Assembly: GCF_009914755.1 (NCBI RefSeq)
Contig: NC_060925.1
Reading direction: 5' to 3' (one strand)
Length of the DNA stretch: 64,000 nucleotides
From: the human T2T-CHM13v2.0 reference genome, Homo sapiens
Every line of letters begins with the position of its first letter. The first letter of the stretch is position 1. Under the pieces are notes generated by a model that was given only the letters and a program-made list of their open reading frames with translations, searched no databases and was not told the DNA's origin. This document shows positions 37,827-49,247 of the stretch, in pieces. The position numbers were made by a program, and so were the translations under genes.

Positions 37827-39054
37827 AGGTAAATTTGCCTATGCAAGGACACGCAGCTAGTGATTTGTTCCACATCTGACCCCAGGGCCTATGCGCCTTT
37901 CCCTACCCAGGCCACCGCCATGACTCAGGAGGCCCCTCTGGGGAAGCAGCGGGAACCCTCATAGGAGGCTCCGGGACAGAGAGATGCAGGGCTGGGACGA
38001 GGAGGCCCCGAGGGGAGGCTGCTCGCTCTCCTGTCCCATGGAGGTCTCTGCTAGGGGTAGCCCCGTCCTGGGACACAGACACCAAGGACTGCTGTCTGAG
38101 AGGAGGAGGCTGAGTTGGGAGGGACAATGGCCTGAGTTGATTCTGAAGCCTGTGAGCAAGGTGGGACAAGCCGGAGAGGCAGCTGAGCAAGTGGGGGCGA
38201 AGACTGAGGGTGAGAGTTTGTGCTGAAGAGGCAAGGGGCAGCCTCAAGTGGGCAGGGCAAGGCCAGATGCAGAGGCTGACAGGAGTGGGCAAGGGGACCG
38301 GGATTCAGGGGGAGACTGAGTCAGGGGCCAGACAGGCTGGAGCTCCTAGGGTTGGAAGCTGGGTGATGGGGCCTCATTCTCTGCCACACGAGACTCCCCC
38401 AGCCCAGCCTTCCCCCTTATTGTCTCTCACAGATACTCCCATACATCCCTGGTACCCCTGTCATCTTTCCTAAGCTATGCTCTTTTTCAGGAGGGTGGCG
38501 TTTAGGGGAGGGTATCCTCCAGAAATAGCAAGTCTCAAAGTCAGCTCTTGCCTGAGTCCCAGTCTCCTTTGGTGGAAGGGTAGTCCCTCTTTTTGCATGT
38601 TTTAAGTGGTCAGCCTGGCAAGGGGCGGGAGGCCTGGGTTTCTTTCTTCTCTTTAGGATGGGGCTGGTCCTCCACCTCCCACTGGCTGGCAGCCTCCCGG
38701 CCCCTGGTGGCCCCAATCCATTGTCCCAATAAGAATAGAGAAAACAGCTTTGGAAATTGACACTATGAATGGTGCTGGGGCTGCTGGGCTGGGACTGAAC
38801 TAATGGGATGAGGTCCCCCACTTCAGGCCCAGGCTCAGCACCTGGGACGGTGACTCTACTAGGAGAGTGGGGGCTCTGCACCCCTCCCCAGGACCCCCAA
38901 ATTAGACTTCAAGCCACCCCTGTCCAGGACATGGATCCCCAGGGATGGGCTTGGGGGACCAGATGCCCCAACTCCTCCTAGAACTTCACTCTCATTCAGT
39001 CAAAGTTTGAGAGGGAGTAAGGGGTGGGTAATGGGCTGGGAGAGATTTCTGGAA

Positions 39055-39135
39055 GCTGAGAAAGGGGCGGGTCTGACCCCCCAACTTTGCCCCGCTCTCA
39101 TTGGCCCTCGCCCCCTTTCCCCGCCCCAATTGTCT
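39055..39135 (+). promoter_or_regulatory. Putative promoter of the IGDCC3-like pseudogene
   Basis: GGGGCGGG 39064, ATTGG 39100, CCCCGCCCC ~39119 and CCAAT 39126, about 310-380 nt upstream of the signal-peptide ATG. Confidence 0.55.
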
Positions 39136-39440
39136 CGGTGTCTGGGTCCTGGCCCTGGGAGGAGGGGACAGTGGGGATAGGAGTGGGGAGGGGGCTCAGG
39201 CTGAAAGCAGAGAGAGACCCAGCTCCAGGAACACGAAGGCAAGGACAGTAGCCTTCAGTCTCGACCCCAGAGCTTGGCACCCCAGAACCTGGGCTCCCCA
39301 AAGCAAGACCAGGGCCCCCACATTGTGCGCCAAAGTGCGGGGTGGAGAATGCCCACAGCCCAAGGGCCCCCAGGCTGAAGGCAGGAGACTGGGGCTGCTG
39401 GAGAAGTTGCCCAGGCTGAGGGGCCGTGCCTGGCAGGGAC

Positions 39441-39474
39441 ATGGGGCTGCTGCTGCTGCTGCTCCCAGGCTGGG
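39441..39474 (+). pseudogene. Pseudo-exon 1: signal peptide MGLLLLLLPGW
   Basis: gacATGG strong Kozak, (CTG)5 leucine run, phase-1 donor G|gtaaga matching exon 2. Confidence 0.7.
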
Positions 39475-40689
39475 GTAAGAGGCTGAGCCATGGGGGCCAT
39501 AGGGAAAGCCAGGGCAGAGGGACGGGGAAGAAAAAGAGGCAGGCATAGGGGTGGGAGAGTTGCGGGGCAAGGTTGGGGAAGCAGAGGGATGGAGGTGGCC
39601 GGAGTGGAGATGGAGAAACCCTGAGGACAGCAGAGGAGAGGGGTGAGCAGGAGGGGCAGGCAGGGCTGCGGGAGAGCTGTGGGGGGTGCTCTAGGAGCCC
39701 AGGCTTTGGGGCACAGTGGCTAGAAGGGGACCTGGGGGCCACGTGAGGCAAGTGGCTGAGCAGACTGCGGGGCATGCAGAGGCAGGGCCCCAGAGGCTTA
39801 CCCACAGATGTCCCTGAGCCAACCAAGGCTGGCTGAGCCCCCTGCCCATGTGCCCCTCGGAGGCTCTGTCTGCCCGCCTATCCACCCCATCTGCTGGGGG
39901 TCCTGGCTCAGCCTTACAGGCTGAGTTATTGTATTTATGGGGGTGTGTGGGAAGGGAGGCTGTGGGTTCACAGCTCTGCTCATGCATTTCTGGGCCTGTG
40001 CTGTTAGTGTCTGTGGCCCTGTGCTTATGTATTTGTGACTTTGAGTCTGTAGGGACATCTATGTGTGACCTGTGTTTGGGGCCTCCTTGAGTGTGCATCT
40101 GGGATGGAATCTGTCTGTGTCTAGAAGACCTGGTGGCCAGTGAGGTTGTGATTTTTAATCCAAGTGTGTGTGTGTCCGTGAATGAGTGTGTGTGAGTGTA
40201 AGTGTGTTCCTTCCCTATTCAGAGGCCAGGGTCCTGGTGGCGGGAGGGGGAAGGGGGAGAGCCAGGAGTCCTGGGAAGCTGACCCTGCAGGCAGACAGGC
40301 AGATGGGCCGGTGGGGGAGGGAGGGGGCGATCCCATTGTCCCCTGGGGAGCACAATGCTCACGCCTCAGCCCCTGACCTCACCATTGTGCCCACCCCGCC
40401 CCCTCCCCGTTGCCAGGGCCCAGCTGAAAGAGGCCATCAATCACAGCCGGCCCGCCAGGCCCACACCGCACCCGCCAGCCGGACAGTGGCCCGCCCTGCT
40501 CCTCAGATGGCCAGGCCCTGCCCTCTCTTCCCTGTTCCTCCTTTGCTGACCCAAAGTCTCCCTAAAGTCAAGTCCTGTCCCTTGCCCCTCGCCAAGGCTG
40601 GGAGGGAATCAAAGCCATGGGGGAGGTGGTGGACAAAGGGTGGGCCTCAGGGGGCCGCCGTGTTCAGGCTGTGCTGGCTGTCCCTACAG

Positions 40690-40987
40690 GCTGTGCTGCA
40701 GGCTCCGAGCTGGCCTTCGTGCAGGAGCTGGGGGACACAGTGGCTGTGTGGGAGCACCCACTGGTGCTGCCAGGTGGAGGGTGAGCCGCCTGTGTCCATT
40801 TCCTGGCAGCGGGATAGGCTGGCCTTAGCCAATGAGAGTGGTGTCACCCTGATGCCAGATGGCTCCCTGCACCTGGCCGCCCTGCCTTCCCGCCGGAGCC
40901 TCCCTTCCCGTGCCCACGAGTACCACTGCGTGGCCCAGAACCGCTACGGGCGGCTGGTGAGCCGACGGGCCCGGGTACAGCTGGCAA
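40690..40987 (+). pseudogene. Pseudo-exon 2: Ig1 (frameshift at ~40767)
   Basis: ctacag|GC; GSELAFVQELGDTVAVWEHPLVL / CQVEGEPPVSISW...EYHCVAQNRYGRLVSRRARVQLA; A|gtaagt. Confidence 0.9.
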
Positions 40988-41087
40988 GTAAGTGACAGGG
41001 CTGCTCCTGGGATTGGGGGATGAGAGTTGGTGGGGCACCCACAGAAGGCACCCATGGGGCCCAGACTCGCTGAGAGTGGGCCTGAGC

Positions 41088-41338
41088 AGGGCCAGCCCAG
41101 CCATTAGACACAGTGTACACACTGGTAGAGCCTCTGATTCTTTTAGGGGCCCACAAAAATGTTTTAACTTCTTCAAAACCAGAAGAAAAAAATGAATACA
41201 ATAATAAATATGTAAAAATGAGTCCAGACTGGATTATATTTGTCTATATTCCAATGCCATTGTAAACTATGATTTAAAATTTTTGTAATGGAGGAAGGCA
41301 AAGTGCTTATAGCCCACAGAAGTCCTAGACATGAGGCT
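41088..41338. mobile_element. MER96B-like hAT element in pseudogene intron 2
   Basis: ttttaggggcccacaaaaatg...tccagactggattatattt resembles MER96B in reverse. Confidence 0.6.
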
Positions 41339-41468
41339 GCAGGGCTCTATACTGAAGAGGATGTGGCAGATGTGGGCACAGAGGTGGGGCCCAGCCCTGG
41401 GACTTGGTTGTGGGGGGATAGCCCAGGGCCAGCTCTGCAGGTGCCCAAGTGGCCCCCCCATCCTCTAG

Positions 41469-41613
41469 GTCTGTCCCGCTTCCACCAACATCCAGAATCC
41501 ATTGAGGTGGAGCGGGGTGGAGTTGCTTGCTTCCAGTGCCTGATCCAGGGGGTGCCTGAGCCATCCATTTCCTGGGAGCACAATGGCACAGCCCTGAATA
41601 CTGCCAACCACCG
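41469..41613 (+). pseudogene. Pseudo-exon 3: Ig2 N-half
   Basis: ctctag|GT; LSRFHQHPES...FQCLIQGVPEPSISWEHN; CG|gtgagc. Confidence 0.92.
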
Positions 41614-41696
41614 GTGAGCACCTGCCAGGAGTGCAATGGGACGGTGGGCTGTGGGCCAGGGCACAGGCCATGGAGCCCTGACCTCTGCATCCTCAG

Positions 41697-41827
41697 GGTC
41701 ACACTGCTGCCTAGTGGCATCCTCCACATCACCAGTGTGAGCCAGACTGACATGGGAACCTACCGCTGCGTGGCATGGAATGTGGCCAGTACCCGCCACA
41801 GCCAGGATGCCCAGCTGACCCTGAGTG
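41697..41827 (+). pseudogene. Pseudo-exon 4: Ig2 C-half
   Basis: cctcag|G; VTLLPSGILHIT...DMGTYRCVAWNVAS; G|gtaagc. Confidence 0.92.
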
Positions 41828-42654
41828 GTAAGCCAGGCCCAGTGTGGGCACTGGGCAGAGGGGAGGGTATGGTTGCTGTGGTTGTACATGGGACAGGCAG
41901 GCATTTTGAGCACCTATGACTGTGCCAGGTGTGGGAGGGCAGCAGGCTTGAGCCATCCCTGGCTTCCTGGAGCTCACAACCTGAGAGAGAAGGTGGTGCT
42001 GCGGGAACCCAGGGTTGGGCTGTGGGCAAGGATTGTCAGGGGCTTCTGGAGTAAGCTACCCCAAGCCGGGTGTTGAAGGGTGAGTGGAGAGAGGCAAGCC
42101 AAGGTCAGGAGGTAAGGGCAGGGGCATTTCCTTGGACAAATGCACAAGGGTGAGGACAACAAAGTTCACACAGGCAGTTCTGTGTTGTTGGACCACAGAA
42201 TGGGCAGAATTCAGGGTAGCAAAGTTAATGTTGGCGAGTAGGCAAGGCACATACCATGAAAGGAGTTTGGACTTGATCCAGAGGGTAGTGGGAGCTCTGG
42301 AGGGTCTAGCGTTGGGGCTGAGTCAGCCTGTGTTTTGAACACGTGGCCCCCATACACATGGCGTGTAGATGTGCATGTGTTCGTGTATGTGTCTGTGCTT
42401 GCATGTACATGTGCATGTGTGCATGGACACTTGCACGTCTCCTTCTTGGGGTGAGGATGAAAATAGCTTTGTACCTGAGATGAAACACCCAGGATGACCC
42501 CACTTGCAGGCCAAATGGGGTGGGAGAGTTTTGTGCCCAAAGTGAAGGCCACAGCAGAGCCTATGAGGAGCTGGTGCCTAGCAGGAGAGGCAGGTTAGAC
42601 CCTGCCTAAACCAGAGATGCCGCAGGTGTTTGTGAGGGAAAGTCATGCCTGAAT

Positions 42655-42673
42655 CAGCCACTAGGGGGCTCCA
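42655..42673 (+). promoter_or_regulatory. CTCF-binding motif
   Basis: CAGCCACTAGGGGGCTCCA closely matches the CTCF core CCAC(C/T)AG(G/A)GGGC. Confidence 0.65.
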
Positions 42674-42681
42674 GGGTATAA

Positions 42682-43061
<380 letters not shown>

Positions 43062-44684
43062 GTATATAATTTTTAAACTTAAGACTGGCAGGGGAAGGGG
43101 GAACGGTTGTGTTTCTGATCTGTAACTGACTTAGAAACTCAAAGCGAGGGTGGGGGTCAGCGGCTCCTCTGCAGGAGCAGAGGAGCCCAATGAGGTCCCT
43201 CTGGCCTGTGGTGTTCCGTTCCTATCCACAGTCTGGGGCAGGAGGGCAGGGCAGGAGGCTATGTCTCTCAAGGCTATCGAGCAGACATAGGATTCTGCTG
43301 CCCGCGGAGCAGGGAGACGAATGGCCAGAGAGCGACAGGAGGTTAGCAGGAGGAGCAGGCGCCTGTTGGGGGCAGAGGACCAATCAGAAACCGAAGGCTC
43401 AAGGGTTGCCTAAAGGAGCTGGTGTCAAGAGTAGTCTTCCCCAGGGGCAGGAGCTGGGGACCAAGGCCCCAAGCCATTCACCCCTAATGCACTCAACTGC
43501 ACACACCTGGACAGGCACTTACCCTGGGCGTGCACCAGGGTGAGACAGAATTTCCCAGACTTCAAGGAGCTCACAGCGGCTAAAGAGGGGATCCTCTTTG
43601 TCAGCTGTTCAGTGCTACCAAGATCCAGGAAGTCCCCCAGTTCTGCCAGTGCCTCTGTCATTGGGCAAGTTACTTAACCTCTCTGATCCTTGATCTTCTC
43701 ATGTAAATGGGGGAAATAACAGTACTCCGCACACAGGCTGTGGTGAGGGCAAAATGGGACAATCTGTGGGGCTCGCAGCCAATGTCTGGCATGGGGAAGG
43801 GGTCGGCCCGGGTGGCCCAGCCTCCCCTCACTGAACTGTCTGGCCAGGCAGGACACAGCCTCTTTGAATGAGGCCAGGAGATTCCAGGGCAGCCCACAGC
43901 CTGTACTGCAGCTTGCAAGAGGCAAATGGAGAAGGGCTGGGCCCAAAGTAGGCCTTCAATCTATAGTTGCTGAATAAGTGAATGAACAAAACACAATCCT
44001 ACACCTTGAGGGATAAAGATGTGTAAGACTTTAGACCAGCCCTTGAGAAACTTTCATTTTAGAAACATTTTATCTGAGACATTCTTAATAAAGGGCATTT
44101 ATGAAAGGAAAGACACGTTAAGTTCTCACATGATACAAGGTGGTAAAGAAAATGAGGATGATGGCCTATGGGAAGGCAGAGCTCTGTTTCACACGATGTT
44201 GTTCACAACTGTGCTCCCAGTGTGAGGGTGCTGCCTGGCACATGGGAGCCCCCAGTGATGACCTGTTGAATAAACTAATGAAACGGGGGAGCATGGCATA
44301 AAATGAAGATGTGATTTAGACCCAAAACAAGAGTTACTTTGGGAAAACACATCCTTCCTAAGCAGCTAAGCAGGCTGAGGTCTTAGGAGGCTGGTCATGC
44401 TTTCTGAGGGAGCGCCTCCTACTAACTTTGTGGGTGCCTCTACCTGCCCCTCAGGGTGAGGCGCCCAGGGAAGGTGGGGCCACCCACAGGGTTTGTAGGA
44501 GGAGAATGCTCTCTCCTCTCTCTCCGCACCCCCAGTCTACCAGACCTTCAGCCTGATAGCTACTTCCATGGGACTTTGGGCAGGTCATTTTTAAAATCTG
44601 TAAATTGGGGATGGAATAGCAGCTGCAAAGCACACCTCTGAGGTCTGGTGACATTTGTGGGCTGGAAGAGTGTGCTTGGAGTAG

Positions 44685-45680
<996 letters not shown>

Positions 45681-45744
45681 TAGGGCCACTCCACTAAGTC
45701 TTGGTGGGAAAGGGCTCCCAGTAGCTGAGTTTGTCTTTCTCTAG

Positions 45745-45989
45745 TACGCTGATGCTGGCAGGGGTTTCAGTTGAGGATGAGGCCATCTATCAATGCGTGG
45801 CAGAGAACAGCACGGGCTCCAACCAGGCCAGTGCCCGCCTGGTTGTGACAGGGGGCCCAGAGCCACCCCGTCCCCAGGGGACTGCATGCCATGGCTCTCT
45901 CTACTTCTGCCATTCGAGTGTCCTGGGAGCCACCCCCCCCTCCAGCAGGGACATCATTGGCTACGTGCTGCACCTCCGGCCTGTGGGAG
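45745..45989 (+). pseudogene. Pseudo-exon 8: Ig4 C-half plus FN3-1 N-part (two compensating frameshifts)
   Basis: ctctag|T; EDEAIYQCVAENSTGSNQASARL / PRGLHAMALSTSAIRVSWEPP / SSRDIIGYVLHLR; G|gtgggt. Confidence 0.9.
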
Positions 45990-46420
45990 GTGGGTGTGGG
46001 TGGGTGGAGAGGGCTTTGACCTCAGAGAAGGGCCAGGGGCCAGGAGTCCCTGGCACCAGCCCATCTCTGCTCCTGACTGCTGATGTCCTGGGTGAGTCCC
46101 TCTCACTCTCTGAGCCCCAGTCTCCTCCATGACCCCAGACCCTTCTGGATTCTTCCCAGGCCTCTGGGCCTGTGGTTCTCTGGGCTGGCTGCCTCTGTAC
46201 ATGGTCTTTTGGTGCTTCCTTACTGCTTTTCAGCTTGACTCTAGGCCCTTTCCTCATCCTCATCCTCATCCTTTCTCAGCTTAGCTCCAACTTCTGTAGC
46301 TCCCTTCCCTGCTCTCCTTGGAGGCTTGGCTGGCCCAGCCAGGCACCAAGAGGGGCTTCGTCCCCAGTTTGTGAAGGTGTGGGGACGTGGCTAGTGAGAA
46401 GATGCTGCTTTGCTCCTCAG

Positions 46421-46585
46421 AGCCATCTGGCCCGGAGCTCCAAGAGGCCATAAGCAAAGGCACTTCTGAGCACGTCTTCTCCAACCTGGAGCCTGCCACA
46501 GCCTACACCATCCATTTGCGGGCCTACTCAGCAGAGGGTGCCAGTCAGGACTCTGCTCCCATCTTTGCCTCCACCATGGGCAGCA
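46421..46585 (+). pseudogene. Pseudo-exon 9: FN3-1 C-part
   Basis: cctcag|AG; QEAISKGTSEHVFSNLEPATAYTIHLRAYSAEGAS; A|gtgagt. Confidence 0.92.
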
Positions 46586-46671
46586 GTGAGTGACAGCCTC
46601 TCCAGCCCTGGGAAGTCCCTGGCCTCAGGTGGGCAGGGACTGCCAACTAGTTTGCTTGTTTTCCTCTGCAG

Positions 46672-46858
46672 CCCCTGCTGCCCTGGGCTTCTCCACCAAA
46701 GTGCTGAATGCCACCTCTGTGCAGGCCTCCTGGGAGCTGCCACCCCAGCTGGGGCCCATCCAAGGCTTCAAACTTTCACCGCAAGCTGCCTGCTGCCCAT
46801 TTTCAGGGGCCTCTGCTCCTGGCCAGCAGTGTCAGCTCCTTCCTCTACACAGACCTGG
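46672..46858 (+). pseudogene. Pseudo-exon 10: FN3-2 N-part (frameshift at ~46776)
   Basis: ctgcag|CC; VLNATSVQASWELPP...GFKL / HRKLPAAHFQGPLLL...YTDL; G|gtgagg. Confidence 0.9.
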
Positions 46859-46980
46859 GTGAGGCTCTGAACCTTCCTGTGCCACTCAAGGCCTGCCTTT
46901 CTCAGTGTGATCTTGCCCCAGGTACTGAGCTTCCTGGCCCAGAAATGCCCGTCCCCTTCACATTCCCCTGCTCCCGGCAG

Positions 46981-47088
46981 AACCGGCTGCTCTCTATGAC
47001 ATCAAGCTGCAGGCGTTCAATGGCAATGGGGATGGAAATAGCAGTGCCCGCTGTGTCTCATTGCGTGATGTGCCCCTGGCCACTCCTG
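46981..47088 (+). pseudogene. Pseudo-exon 11: FN3-2 C-part
   Basis: cggcag|AA; EPAALYDIKLQAFNGNGDGNSSARCVSLR; G|gtaagt. Confidence 0.9.
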
Positions 47089-47216
47089 GTAAGTGGGGTC
47101 TGGTAGGAGGGTAGTAGGGCTGGGGTCAGAGCAGGCCCCTCTGATAGGACCCATGGCTGCCAGTCTTCAGGAAGAGGGCTGGGCTTCACCTCCAACCCTG
47201 GTCCTCTCTCTGACAG

Positions 47217-47364
47217 ATGGCACAGTGTCCACAGAGTCCAAGACTGGGTGCTCTTGCAGCCAGGGTGAGAGCAGCCCACTGCCTGGGGTTGTGGTGGGCA
47301 TCCACGTGGGCCTGGCTGCCCTCATCATTTGCCTCCTCTGCCTCTTCCTGGGCTGGAGACATAG
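47217..47364 (+). pseudogene. Pseudo-exon 12: juxtamembrane CxC plus transmembrane helix; donor mutated (AG|ctaagg)
   Basis: tgacag|AT; GCSCSQ...GVVVGIHVGLAALIICLLCLFLGWRH. Confidence 0.88.
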
Positions 47365-47768
47365 CTAAGGGCCAGGTAAGGGCTAATGTGGGAAATCTGC
47401 CAGGGAGACAGTCTGCATCACTGTGGCACAGGGCCAAAGAGAGCAAAAAAGCCCCAATCTACAACCAATCTATTTTACCAATGAGGAGACTCAGGCAGAG
47501 AGAGGAAGCCAATTCTTTTCAGAGCTGTGTGGTACCAGGGGCAGGAGAAGGCCTGCCATGAGCCGGGAAGAGAGAACTGGGGCTCCCAAAGCAAAGAACA
47601 AGGGCAGCAGAAATGAGCTAGAGCCAGTTCCCTGCCATCCAGCAGCATGAAGAGGGGTCCACCCTCTCCATCTCTGGGGAGCATGGAGCAGGAGGAGGGG
47701 TTGGGAGCCATGCGAGGCAGAGGGAGGCACCAGACAGACCACACTGCTGACCCTTCCTACCCGGGCAG

Positions 47769-47898
47769 CCTCCTCTGCAAACAGGAGTCCCAGGAATGCT
47801 GGGCAGTGCCTCGGACTGCCTCAGACAGAACTGGGGGCCATCAAGGCCAGACTCAGAGTGGAGGGAAGCTGGGGGAGAAGACTGAACTCACCACCCAG
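47769..47898 (+). pseudogene. Pseudo-exon 13: cytoplasmic tail (LLCKQESQECWAVPR...ELTTQ)
   Basis: gggcag|C phase 2; LLCK matches the recalled IGDCC3 post-TM motif; CAG|gtgagg. Confidence 0.75.
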
Positions 47899-47986
47899 GT
47901 GAGGCGGATTCAGTGATGGGGAATGAGTGGGGGAAACTGGAGTGTTTGAGGCCTTGGTCCAGAGGCCTGACCTCCTTCACCCTCAG

Positions 47987-48016
47987 GTGACTGTGGAACA
48001 GCTGGCCTTGGCCTAG
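47987..48016 (+). pseudogene. Pseudo-exon 14: terminal coding segment VTVEQLALA*
   Basis: ctgac branch-like site, pyrimidine tract, cctcag|GTG phase 0; TAG may be native or a CAG>TAG lesion. Confidence 0.5.
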
Positions 48017-49247
48017 GGCCCTCCAAGTTGGCTCCCTCCGAGATGCCACTAACTCCAGATACACCAAAGAATCTACCTCACCTGTCCCTGTCACCCCAGA
48101 GTCAGGAAAGAACCAAAAGTCCCTCAGCTCCTCTCCGGGGAGGGGCAGGACTGGCCATAGTGGGAGAGAAGAGGGTGTGGTTTCTCTGTTCCTCCCAGAC
48201 CTCAAGAAATGGGAGAATCTGCATCCCTTCCCCCAACACACCAAATAACCTCAAACTAAACCAAGCCCAGCTGGGAGTTACCCCCAACCCAGTTACTCCT
48301 GCCTCATAACCCCATCCAGTATATTCACCTCTTCTTGATCCAAATATGAACCTGCCCAAAGACACCTAGCTTTAAGGGTTCCCCACAAAATGGCGGCAGG
48401 GGAAGAGGCTCTGTCATCACCTCCATCTCACAACCTGAAGCCCTCCAGTCTAAAATCTGTCTCTGTCTCCTCGTGCCCAAGCTGAGCTCTGCCCAGGGAC
48501 AGGCGACCTGCATTCCTTGTGGTCCGAGTGAGCAGGTGGGCAAAGGGGGTGCAGAGTTTCTTGCCCCCCTTCTCCCTACAACATGACTCTTAAATATCTG
48601 AGCTCATATGAGCTTCTCTGAGCAACCAAATACCCATTTCCCCCTTCCCAGATCCAAAGCACTGGCTCCTCCGCAGGGGGTCCTCCTTACCCATTTGATT
48701 TTTATTTTTGAAAGAGATTAGTTTGAGTCAGGGTTTTGGCAGTCTTGAATCGCCTGTAGAATGAGCACAGAGGCTGGGGAGCACTCCCCATCTCCCCTCC
48801 CTCAACTCTTGGGGTCTGAAGAGCACCTCTTTCCCACTTCTCCCTCTACCAGCCTATTGGCATCCAGAGCACCACAGTCCCTCCTTATCCAGCTCTGCCA
48901 TGCTCTAAAGCCAAAGCCCCAGCCACTTCCTCAATCACTCTCTCTCCAAGGCTGCCCAGTATTGTGCCAAAAAGGGAAGGGTCTTGGGGGAAGGAAAGCC
49001 CATGGCTTAGAGGACCCCAAAACTGTCTCCTGTGCTCTTATAGAGTAATGCTAGTACCAATGACAAGACTCCAGAAAGGCTGGGCTCTGGCCCTCCACAA
49101 TAGTGCCCTCTGCACAAGGCACAGCAGCAGCTGTAACTAAAAAACGTGGCTGAGGAGCAAGAGGGCTAAGAATAGCCCCAAACATCAAGTCCTTGAGGAA
49201 ATGACATCCTCTTCTCTGGTTGGGCCTGGTCTAACTGCTTTGTTGGA

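What the first reader, a model, noticed from the sequence alone, without database searches (positions are those of the whole stretch)
39441..48016. Complete but disabled gene for a lost IGDCC3-like DCC-family receptor between SLC27A3 and GATAD2B
Seen: 14 exons with mutually consistent splice phases (34, 298, 145, 131, 138, 168, 164, 245, 165, 187, 108, 148, 130, 30 nt). Repairing 5 small indels gives ~2103 nt (~700 aa): signal peptide, 4 Ig domains with their Cys/Trp cores, 2 FN3, TM helix and short tail. Known: 4 Ig + 2 FN3 is the IGDCC3/PUNC architecture (DCC and NEO1 have 4+6; PRTG and IGDCC4 have 4+5), and motifs match recalled IGDCC3. Inference: it has introns and many substitutions versus IGDCC3, so it is neither a retrocopy nor a recent duplicate. 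It looks like a separate family member that humans have lost (unitary pseudogene). I recall a generic IGDCC3-pseudogene LOC entry at 1q21.3 but no functional study of an intact orthologue.
Basis: partly seen in the sequence, partly recalled or inferred. Interest (0 to 1): 0.9.

Follow-up and report, generated by a model that had tools for sequence, protein, structure and literature searches.

The report
Dead human copy of PUNC's sister gene
Between SLC27A3 and GATAD2B lies the broken remnant of a sixth member of the DCC family of cell-surface receptors, an ancient sister of IGDCC3/PUNC that other mammals, reptiles and fish are still predicted to encode and that the papers found here do not mention.

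Summary
Thirteen introns start after an AG, and 12 of 13 donors are GT. Read through, they give a signal peptide, 4 Ig domains, 2 FN3 domains, a membrane helix and a short tail.

The gene is dead. It has five frameshifting indels: -5 in exon 2, -2 in exon 7, -2 and +2 in exon 8, and -2 in exon 10.

Predicted 'IGDCC3-like' proteins of horse, mole and opossum map colinearly on the exons, horse and mole at 82-95% identity on the clean exons. In a careful tree the human sequence sits among eutherian members of a clade running from fish to mammals (support 100/100). That clade is sister to true IGDCC3 (99/96) and separate from IGDCC4. Forcing it into IGDCC3 is rejected (p-AU 1.2e-5).

Decay began before the human-gibbon split and continued afterwards.

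RefSeq already calls the 5' part an 'IGDCC3 pseudogene' and the 3' part an unrelated lncRNA. No paper found describes this sixth member. Synteny in other species and dN/dS could not be tested. Interest is moderate.

The parts
39216..39440 (+). 5' untranslated part of the transcribed pseudogene (first exon of NR_126565.1)
   Evidence: Annotation table supplied with the finding. The ATG at 39441 opens a Leu-rich signal peptide that aligns with the N-termini of the orthologues.
39441..39474 (+). Exon 1: start codon and signal peptide, phase 1 donor GT
   Evidence: The end coincides with that of RefSeq exon 1.
40690..40987 (+). Exon 2: Ig domain 1. A 5-bp deletion at about 40768-40772 shifts the frame and gives a TGA at 40782-40784.
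   Evidence: Pfam I-set E 8e-07. The horse HSPs overlap by 5 nt. Macaque and gibbon read HPLVLPCQVEG intact. Sequence.
41469..41613 (+). Exon 3: first half of Ig domain 2
   Evidence: Pfam I-set E 1.5e-09; 87.5% identical to horse.
41697..41827 (+). Exon 4: second half of Ig domain 2
44747..44884 (+). Exon 5: first half of Ig domain 3
   Evidence: 89% identical to horse.
44974..45141 (+). Exon 6: second half of Ig domain 3, with an in-frame 9-bp tandem duplication at 45007-45024 found only in human
   Evidence: All 9 other mammals in the alignment, gibbon and macaque included, lack the three extra residues.
45285..45448 (+). Exon 7: first half of Ig domain 4, with a 2-bp deletion in its first codons (orthologues read APPEFVQW)
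   Evidence: The phase sum requires frame 2, but only frame 0 is open. Macaque and gibbon are intact here.
45745..45989 (+). Exon 8: end of Ig domain 4 and start of FN3 domain 1. It has a -2 at about 45866-45869 (shared with gibbon) and a +2 in the C run at about 45932-45942 (human lineage). The two cancel but scramble 23 codons.
46421..46585 (+). Exon 9: rest of FN3 domain 1
   Evidence: Pfam fn3 E 3.9e-06; 80% identical to horse.
46672..46858 (+). Exon 10: first part of FN3 domain 2, with a 2-bp deletion at about 46773-46776 (GFKL|FHRKLP)
   Evidence: The gibbon mapping changes frame here as the horse mapping does, so the deletion is later than the gibbon split.
46981..47088 (+). Exon 11: rest of FN3 domain 2 (the same as an exon of the lncRNA model XR_007070737.1)
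   Evidence: annotation table.
47217..47364 (+). Exon 12: stalk and transmembrane helix. The ancestral acceptor is probably 47235. The donor at 47365-47366 has mutated from GT to CT.
   Evidence: In horse, mole and bat the short models end WRHR plus a stop, which I infer to be read-through past an intact donor (no orthologue DNA was seen). The RefSeq lncRNA exon 47217-47898 retains this intron.
47769..47898 (+). Exon 13: cytoplasmic tail
   Evidence: Aligns with the tails of donkey, whale, bat and marsupial orthologues.
47987..48016 (+). Exon 14: last nine codons (VTVEQ...) and the TAG stop
48017..48351 (+). Probable 3' untranslated region (last exon of the lncRNA model)
   Evidence: Annotation table only. 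No AATAAA or ATTAAA was found between 48017 and 48600.

Best explanation
This is a unitary pseudogene. It is the decayed, still transcribed human copy of a sixth DCC-family gene, sitting at what appears to be its original place. That gene is the ancient sister (most likely a whole-genome-duplication partner) of IGDCC3/PUNC.

The ancestral product was a type I membrane protein of about 695-700 residues. It had a signal peptide, four I-set Ig domains, two FN3 domains, one membrane helix and a tail of about 55 residues with its own conserved motif.

In the human lineage it makes no such protein. The first lesion was a 2-bp deletion in exon 8, shared with gibbon, which cut off everything after Ig domain 4. 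Later came a 5-bp deletion in exon 2 (stop after 42 codons), three more frameshifts, a 9-bp duplication and the loss of the exon-12 splice donor.

What is left is RNA. RefSeq lists the 5' part as the pseudogene LOC343052 and the 3' part as the lncRNA LOC124904425.

Shown: the exon structure, the lesions, the relatives and the tree. Inferred: the origin by genome duplication, the order of the lesions beyond human versus gibbon and macaque, and any function of the intact gene.
For: - Exons, phases and lesions.
- Domain content: for the human pieces. One search finds 4 I-set and 2 fn3 stretches in a whale orthologue, a sugar-glider orthologue and human IGDCC3.
- Colinear match of horse, mole and opossum proteins; horse and mole are 82-95% identical on the clean exons, opossum 58-90%.
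- Best genome-wide match of the horse protein is this locus, with IGDCC3 second.
- Careful tree of 53 rows and 724 columns (LG+C20 PMSF): the clade with human has support 100/100, IGDCC3 99/96, IGDCC4 100/100. Human sits inside the eutherian group (100/100).
- AU test against placement with IGDCC3: p 1.2e-5.
- In the drawn 61-row quick tree both clades largely follow the species tree, from Polypterus and gar to mammals. A shark groups with IGDCC3, so the split is old (the careful tree was not drawn).
- The tail motif of this clade is conserved from gar to reptiles and differs from IGDCC3's.
- Faster protein change on the human branch. In 321 columns of exons 2-7, human has 10 private changes since the gibbon split. 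Mole has 6 and horse 15 on their whole branches.
- Transcript evidence fits. The RefSeq models reuse the ancestral splice sites, and the lncRNA model keeps the intron whose donor is mutated (annotation table with the finding).
- Paralogy of the two regions. DENN-domain exons with the same exon breaks lie about 137 kb from this locus on chromosome 1 and about 0.4 Mb from IGDCC3 on chromosome 15. That these are DENND4B and DENND4A is recalled, not shown.
Against: - Synteny in other species was not tested, so orthology rests on similarity, best hits and the tree.
- 'Intact' orthologues are predicted protein models. Two carry NCBI's LOW QUALITY flag (donkey, humpback). Several have gaps or read into introns (Tupaia, grey and minke whale, horse P0004, opossum P0010).
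- No DNA of orthologues was available, so there is no dN/dS.
- The tree's named outgroup is IGDCC4 only. Eight unnamed representatives used could not be labelled; the three that were tried were not close to solved DCC.
- Macaque has only 8 private changes in exons 2-7, fewer than human. The time of death in Old World monkeys is therefore open, and the Ig1-4 part may have stayed under constraint for a while.
- Only one human assembly was read.
Confidence: 0.9

Rival explanations
1. It is a recent duplicate or a processed copy of IGDCC3 that decayed after landing at 1q21.3, as the RefSeq name 'IGDCC3 pseudogene' could be read.
For: IGDCC3 is the closest human gene, with up to 82-84% protein identity on one exon and the same exon breaks for Ig3 and Ig4. 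The architecture is the same, 4 Ig plus 2 FN3.
Against: - Thirteen introns are present.
- Identity to IGDCC3 is only 56-60% on other exons, against 82-95% to the horse and mole '-like' proteins.
- The tree places it in another clade as old as bony fishes.
- The AU test rejects placement with IGDCC3.
Confidence: 0.01
2. The locus is dead as a receptor gene but still functions in another way: as a regulatory RNA, or through the 42-codon open frame left at the 5' end (signal peptide plus the start of Ig1).
For: RefSeq lists a curated transcribed pseudogene RNA and a predicted lncRNA that reuse the old splice sites, with enhancer elements just upstream (annotation table). The gene name appears in two association gene lists.
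Against: - Both papers list it only as a neighbour within large intervals (passages read).
- The human branch changes fast and collects indels, as neutral DNA does.
- Nothing here tests RNA function.
Confidence: 0.07
3. The lesions are errors or rare alleles of this one assembly, and most humans carry a working gene.
For: Only one human assembly was read. Three of the five frameshifts lie in C-rich or repeated stretches where errors and slippage are common.
Against: - There are seven separate lesions.
- One is shared with gibbon.
- RefSeq's curated RNA has the same 298-nt exon 2 and treats the gene as a pseudogene (annotation table).
Confidence: 0.02

Closest known systems
IGDCC3 (PUNC), human chromosome 15
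   Same: - Architecture of 4 I-set Ig plus 2 FN3 plus one membrane helix.
- Same exon breaks in Ig3 and Ig4.
- Sister clade in the tree.
   Different: - A separate clade that contains ray-finned fishes, a lungfish, amphibians, reptiles and mammals.
- A shorter tail of about 55 residues in mammals, against roughly 190 in human IGDCC3 (a figure recalled, not measured), with a different motif next to the membrane.
- Only 56-84% identity per exon.
- The human copy is broken, while IGDCC3 is intact.
Predicted 'IGDCC3-like' genes of other vertebrates (for example horse, Iberian mole, greater horseshoe bat, opossum, painted turtle, anole, axolotl, lungfish, gar)
   Same: These are the orthologues. 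They map colinearly, horse and mole at 82-95% identity, and form one clade with the human sequence.
   Different: - They are open reading frames in the databases, whereas the human copy has five frameshifts and a dead donor.
- They carry only automatic names.
- No paper on them was found.
IGDCC4 (NOPE), PRTG, NEO1 and DCC
   Same: The same family: four N-terminal Ig domains followed by FN3 repeats and one membrane helix. [quoted passage not shown]
   Different: They have five or six FN3 domains instead of two (same paper). IGDCC4 falls outside the pair formed by IGDCC3 and this clade.
Other human unitary pseudogenes (the class; GULOP is the textbook case, recalled)
   Same: - A gene at what appears to be its ancestral place, with introns.
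- Disabled by small lesions.
- Open in other species' protein models.
- No working copy of its own kind in the genome.
   Different: Apparently also absent from mouse protein sets: no rodent appears among the 120 best hits. Screens that rely on mouse as the reference would therefore miss it (inference).

Membership tests
DCC family of Ig receptors, PUNC/IGDCC3 type | Signal peptide followed by four N-terminal I-set Ig domains | tested here: met
   Pfam I-set or Ig_3 on all eight Ig half-domain pieces (exons 2-8), clearly for Ig1, Ig2 and Ig4. For the two Ig3 halves all matches stay below the curated cut-offs (Ig_3 E 3e-05; V-set E 5e-04). The Leu-rich N-terminus aligns with the orthologues. 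Four I-set stretches are found in the orthologues.
DCC family of Ig receptors, PUNC/IGDCC3 type | Exactly two FN3 domains, then one membrane helix | tested here: met
   fn3 matches on exons 8-11 (only exon 9 above Pfam's cut-off, the three short pieces weak). Two fn3 stretches in the orthologues and in human IGDCC3. A hydrophobic stretch in exon 12 aligns with the orthologues' helix. No dedicated predictor of membrane helices was run.
DCC family of Ig receptors, PUNC/IGDCC3 type | Placement in a tree next to IGDCC3 rather than another family member | tested here: met
   It is sister to IGDCC3, and the pair has support 100 against IGDCC4 and eight unnamed relatives. Careful tree. Named PRTG, NEO1 and DCC were not included.
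IGDCC3 itself (orthologue or recent copy) | Falls inside the IGDCC3 clade | tested here: not met
   It lies in a separate clade (100/100). The AU test rejects holding it with IGDCC3 (p 1.2e-5).
Unitary pseudogene | Lesions that prevent the ancestral protein from being made | tested here: met
   Five frameshifts and a GT to CT donor change. The first stop comes after 42 codons.
Unitary pseudogene | Keeps the gene's own intron structure (neither processed nor a duplicate of a working human gene of the same kind) | tested here: met
   Thirteen introns. The genome search found no other human locus matching the horse protein over 60% along most of its length; IGDCC3 reaches up to 82% on single exons (that search used a stricter first look, so weak hits may be missing).
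Unitary pseudogene | Working orthologues in other species | tested here: inconclusive
   Full-length open models exist for mole, horseshoe bat, three marsupials, reptiles, amphibians, a lungfish and fishes. Horse's own model reads through intron 11. The clade is conserved and largely follows the species tree. However, these are predicted proteins, and no dN/dS or expression data were available.
Unitary pseudogene | Orthologues sit at the same place in the genome (between SLC27A3 and GATAD2B) | not testable with these tools
   No vertebrate genome other than the human one can be read here.

The most novel reading that the evidence does not exclude
Jawed vertebrates started with six DCC-family receptors, not the five listed in current papers. 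The sixth is PUNC's genome-duplication partner. It has gone unnoticed because it is dead in humans and seems absent from mouse.

It survives in horses, moles, horseshoe bats, marsupials, reptiles, salamanders, caecilians, lungfish and ray-finned fishes. In those animals it may be a fourth receptor for WFIKKN proteins.

In our own lineage it died in steps. The membrane anchor went first, through the exon-8 lesion shared with gibbon. The Ig1-4 reading frame stayed open in gibbon and macaque, so a secreted four-Ig product may have persisted for a time before the final hits in the great-ape or human line.
Probability: 0.35. Interest if true: 0.6.

Novelty: new member of a known kind. Interest (0 to 1): 0.42.

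Why it matters
Papers on axon guidance describe the vertebrate DCC family as five receptors, based on mouse and human (bioRxiv 10.1101/2023.06.15.544950 and PMC10084454, passages read). This locus shows that a sixth, PUNC-like member existed. Other vertebrates are still predicted to encode it, so work on PUNC, NOPE and protogenin ligands (WFIKKN2) in fish, reptiles or marsupials should allow for an extra receptor.

For human annotation, two separate RefSeq entries are halves of one 14-exon unitary pseudogene: a three-exon 'IGDCC3 pseudogene' and an 'uncharacterized lncRNA'. The name wrongly suggests a copy of IGDCC3.

The macaque and gibbon entries labelled as protein-coding look like broken genes. 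The macaque model runs into an intron, and the gibbon model is read in the wrong frame.

Tried and rejected
- Labelling distant relatives. The search of representative proteins with the opossum orthologue was swamped by giant Ig-repeat proteins. Eight mid-sized hits served as unnamed outgroups. Three of the eight were sent to the solved-structure search to name them.
- Solved structures. Searching with exon 2 gave only general Ig relatives (titin, ROBO, DCC Ig domains) and nothing specific.
- Literature. One literature search was badly framed (any two of four terms) and returned 15,093 irrelevant papers. It was replaced, where the listing of 6 papers showed none on a PUNC paralogue.
- Retrocopy, recent duplicate and assembly error were considered and rejected (see the rival explanations).
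- A stop codon as the native end. I first read the stop at 47365-47370 as the normal eutherian stop, because horse, mole and bat models end there. I dropped this when donkey, whale, Hipposideros and marsupial models were seen to splice on into exons 13 and 14.
- Shared lesions with gibbon. I first noted that gibbon shares the exon-10 deletion. Re-reading the frames showed that it does not (note 4).

Full report
**What is in the sequence**

I read window 39100-48400 and checked every exon boundary. Every acceptor is AG, and 12 of 13 donors are GT. The exception is the donor after the 148-nt exon 12, which reads CT (47365-47366).

Exon ends coincide with RefSeq exons of two separately annotated genes (annotation table with the finding):
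- The pseudogene RNA NR_126565.1 uses exons 1 and 2 and the 5' part of exon 3.
- The predicted lncRNA XR_007070737.1 uses the donor of exon 10, all of exon 11, the acceptor of exon 12, the donor of exon 13 and the acceptor of exon 14.
- The lncRNA's exon 47217-47898 runs straight through the intron whose donor is mutated.

Pfam finds halves of I-set Ig domains in exons 2 to 8, and fn3 in exons 8 to 11 (only the exon 9 piece passes Pfam's cut-off).

**The lesions**

I placed the breaks by ungapped tblastn of the horse protein (P0004) and of the gibbon, macaque and tree-shrew proteins, and by reading the DNA.

| # | Where | Change | Effect or note |
|---|---|---|---|
| 1 | Exon 2, about 40768-40772 | 5 bp missing; orthologues read HPLVLPCQVEG | TGA follows after 42 codons |
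| 2 | Exon 6, 45007-45024 | 9-bp tandem duplication | In frame, three extra residues |
| 3 | Exon 7, first codons | 2 bp missing; orthologues read APPEFVQW | Frameshift |
| 4 | Exon 8, about 45866-45869 | 2 bp missing in a C-rich run | Frameshift |
| 5 | Exon 8, C run at about 45932-45942 | 2 extra C | Cancels lesion 4 after 67 nt: exon 8 is open in one frame, but 23 codons are scrambled, including the conserved Trp of the first FN3 domain |
| 6 | Exon 10, about 46773-46776 | 2 bp missing (GFKL\|FHRKLP) | Frameshift |
| 7 | Exon 12 donor, 47365-47366 | GT to CT | Donor lost |

The five frameshifts sum to -9. Read through with X at each break, the 14 exons give 700 positions with no internal stop.

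The alignment also suggests that the ancestral acceptor of exon 12 is 47235. It lies 18 nt downstream of 47217 and is in frame, because other mammals read TP|ESKAGC there.

**Relatives**

The protein database holds vertebrates. A search with exons 6-7 listed 120 of 690 hits. Apart from the window's own frame, most are 'IGDCC3' or 'IGDCC3-like' proteins; full-length models run 600-790 residues, and shorter partial and a few longer models are listed too.

- Eutherians listed: Iberian mole, plains zebra, donkey, two horseshoe-type bats, three baleen whales plus an unnamed entry (bmy), tree shrew, rhesus macaque and siamang.
- Also listed: six marsupials, turtles, squamates, a crocodile, salamanders, caecilians, a lungfish and many ray-finned fishes.
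- Not among the 120 listed: any rodent, carnivore, ruminant, pig, afrotherian, bird or frog.

Eutherian orthologues would score highest against a human query. Their absence from the list therefore suggests that those groups have no annotated protein. It is not proof of loss.

Horse, mole and opossum proteins map colinearly on the human exons. Horse and mole are 82-95% identical on the clean exons, opossum 58-90%.

In the human genome the horse protein hits this locus best (93% on exon 2). IGDCC3 on chromosome 15 comes next (82% on one exon, 56-58% on others), then IGDCC4, PRTG and DCC exons.

The full-length form in donkey, whales, Hipposideros and marsupials continues from exon 12 into exons 13 and 14. 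Shorter models that end WRHR plus a stop simply read past an intact donor. That is how the human donor mutation was recognised.

**Tree**

I collected true IGDCC3 proteins and IGDCC4 proteins, using human chromosome-15 exons as queries.

- A quick tree of 61 rows and a careful tree of 53 rows and 724 columns (LG+C20 PMSF) agree.
- The 25 '-like' proteins plus the human read-through form one clade (100/100).
- The 19 IGDCC3 proteins form its sister (99/96).
- IGDCC4 is outside (100/100).
- Human sits within the eutherian group (100/100), with an end branch of 0.10. Mole is 0.05, horse 0.08, bat 0.12 and humpback 0.13.
- In the drawn quick tree both clades largely follow the species tree, and a shark groups with IGDCC3.
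- Eleven species or genera have one protein in each clade.
- Holding the human sequence with IGDCC3 costs 202.6 log-likelihood units and is rejected (p-AU 1.2e-5).

Rows left out of the careful tree: the eight unnamed distant representatives, which had long branches. Named PRTG, NEO1 and DCC were not available as proteins.

**Age and origin**

The split precedes the divergence of ray-finned and lobe-finned fishes. If the shark placement is right, it also precedes the divergence of sharks.

Origin in the early vertebrate genome duplications is an inference. I recall that 1q21-q23 and 15q21-q26 share many gene pairs. Here I checked one pair. DENN-domain exons with the same exon breaks lie about 137 kb from this locus on chromosome 1, about 0.4 Mb from IGDCC3 on chromosome 15, and on chromosome 9. 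The names DENND4B, DENND4A and DENND4C are recalled.

**When it died**

- The gibbon protein model, mapped on human DNA, keeps one frame across the first exon-8 site. It therefore shares that 2-bp deletion.
- It changes frame at the C run and at the exon-10 site exactly as horse does. It is intact at the exon-2 and exon-7 sites, lacks the 9-bp duplication, and splices exon 12 to exon 13.
- The exon-8 deletion is therefore the oldest lesion seen, older than the human-gibbon split. The other six are later.
- The macaque model is intact through exon 7 and then runs into intron 7. Whether its exon 8 is broken could not be seen.

Private protein changes in 321 comparable columns of exons 2-7:

| Lineage or pattern | Changes |
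|---|---|
| Human only | 10 |
| Gibbon only | 22, of which 6 come from a mis-modelled first exon |
| Macaque only | 8 |
| Both apes | 3 |
| All three primates | 7 |
| Mole, whole branch | 6 |
| Horse, whole branch | 15 |
| Horseshoe bat, whole branch | 21 |
| Humpback (low-quality model), whole branch | 33 |

With recalled divergence times, the human terminal branch changes several times faster than the earlier primate stem. This fits relaxed constraint. It is a rough protein-level estimate, not a dN/dS test.

**What the intact gene is like**

The orthologues have 4 I-set and 2 fn3 stretches, as human IGDCC3 does.

Their tail differs from IGDCC3's. Next to the membrane, fishes, amphibians and reptiles read GYR(K/R)SLFC(R/K)KGxQDSWxVP. 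The mammalian version is GWRHSLLCRQGSQECWAVP, and the end reads ELxxQ VTVEQ. IGDCC3 has a longer, different tail.

The mammalian stem branch of this clade is long (0.44) and the mammalian tail is shortened.

No function is known. [quoted passage not shown] The most economical guess is therefore that the intact protein is another WFIKKN-binding receptor. This is untested.

**What is known already**

- RefSeq names LOC343052 an 'IGDCC3 pseudogene' with three exons, and lists the 3' half as an uncharacterized lncRNA.
- NCBI's pipeline names 'IGDCC3-like' genes in many species (names).
- For 'LOC343052', the search found 2 papers. Both only list it as a neighbour within large intervals (passages read).
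- The search for 'IGDCC3-like', 'IGDCC3 pseudogene', 'IGDCC3P' and 'IGDCC3L' found 1 paper, on the trout Y chromosome. I saw only its listing.
- 'IGDCC3' together with 'unitary pseudogene' found 0 papers.
- The five family names together with 'phylogenetic' found 0 papers.
- 'igdcc3' together with 'paralog' found 6 papers, none on this topic by title and abstract.
- Two papers state that the family has DCC, neogenin, Punc, Nope and protogenin: the WFIKKN2 preprint and the review PMC10084454 (passages read).
- The searches cover only the held open-access library. Subscription journals and supplements were not seen.

**Verdict**

The interpretation as a unitary pseudogene of a separate, ancient PUNC-like family member is supported. 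Synteny and dN/dS remain open. It is a new member of a known kind. It is of moderate interest for the DCC family and for annotation, and far from the 0.9 first proposed.

Noticed in passing
window 45866-45942 (exon 8): The two exon-8 frameshifts (-2 and +2, 67 nt apart) cancel each other. The whole exon is therefore open in a single frame, although 23 codons of the first FN3 domain are scrambled. Gibbon has only the first of the two.
   Followed up: yes
proteins P0003 (rhesus macaque, 436 aa) and P0025 (siamang, 603 aa): These database entries are labelled as protein-coding IGDCC3 or IGDCC3-like, but they look like models of a broken gene. The macaque model reads into intron 7. From exon 8 onwards the gibbon model is translated in wrong frames of exons 8 and 10-13 and skips exon 9.
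   Followed up: partly
proteins P0004 (plains zebra) and P0010 (opossum isoform X1): Two models carry likely artefacts. The zebra model reads through intron 11 (GEWGPAG in place of ESKAG). The opossum model has an insert of about 65 residues between the two halves of Ig3 that looks like a retained intron.
   Followed up: no
tree, mammalian stem of the '-like' clade: The branch leading to mammals is long (0.44 changes per column), and the mammalian cytoplasmic tail has lost a middle segment that is present in reptiles, amphibians and fishes. Among eutherians, only a few orders have a listed protein.
   Followed up: partly
window 42760-43084 (intron 4); also 40160-40200 and 42340-42440: An Alu-like repeat with a poly-T head sits in intron 4, and there are TG-rich low-complexity runs in introns 1 and 4. 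They are ordinary intron content.
   Followed up: no
G000 C1:153077703-153078311, C15:63538505-63547244, C9:19308899-19318284: DENN-domain exons with matching exon breaks lie near this locus, near IGDCC3 and on chromosome 9. This fits an old block duplication. The gene names DENND4B, DENND4A and DENND4C are recalled.
   Followed up: partly
window 38500-39500: The region around the old promoter and first exon is 60% G+C, but its CpG observed/expected ratio is only 0.14. It is therefore not a CpG island now.
   Followed up: no
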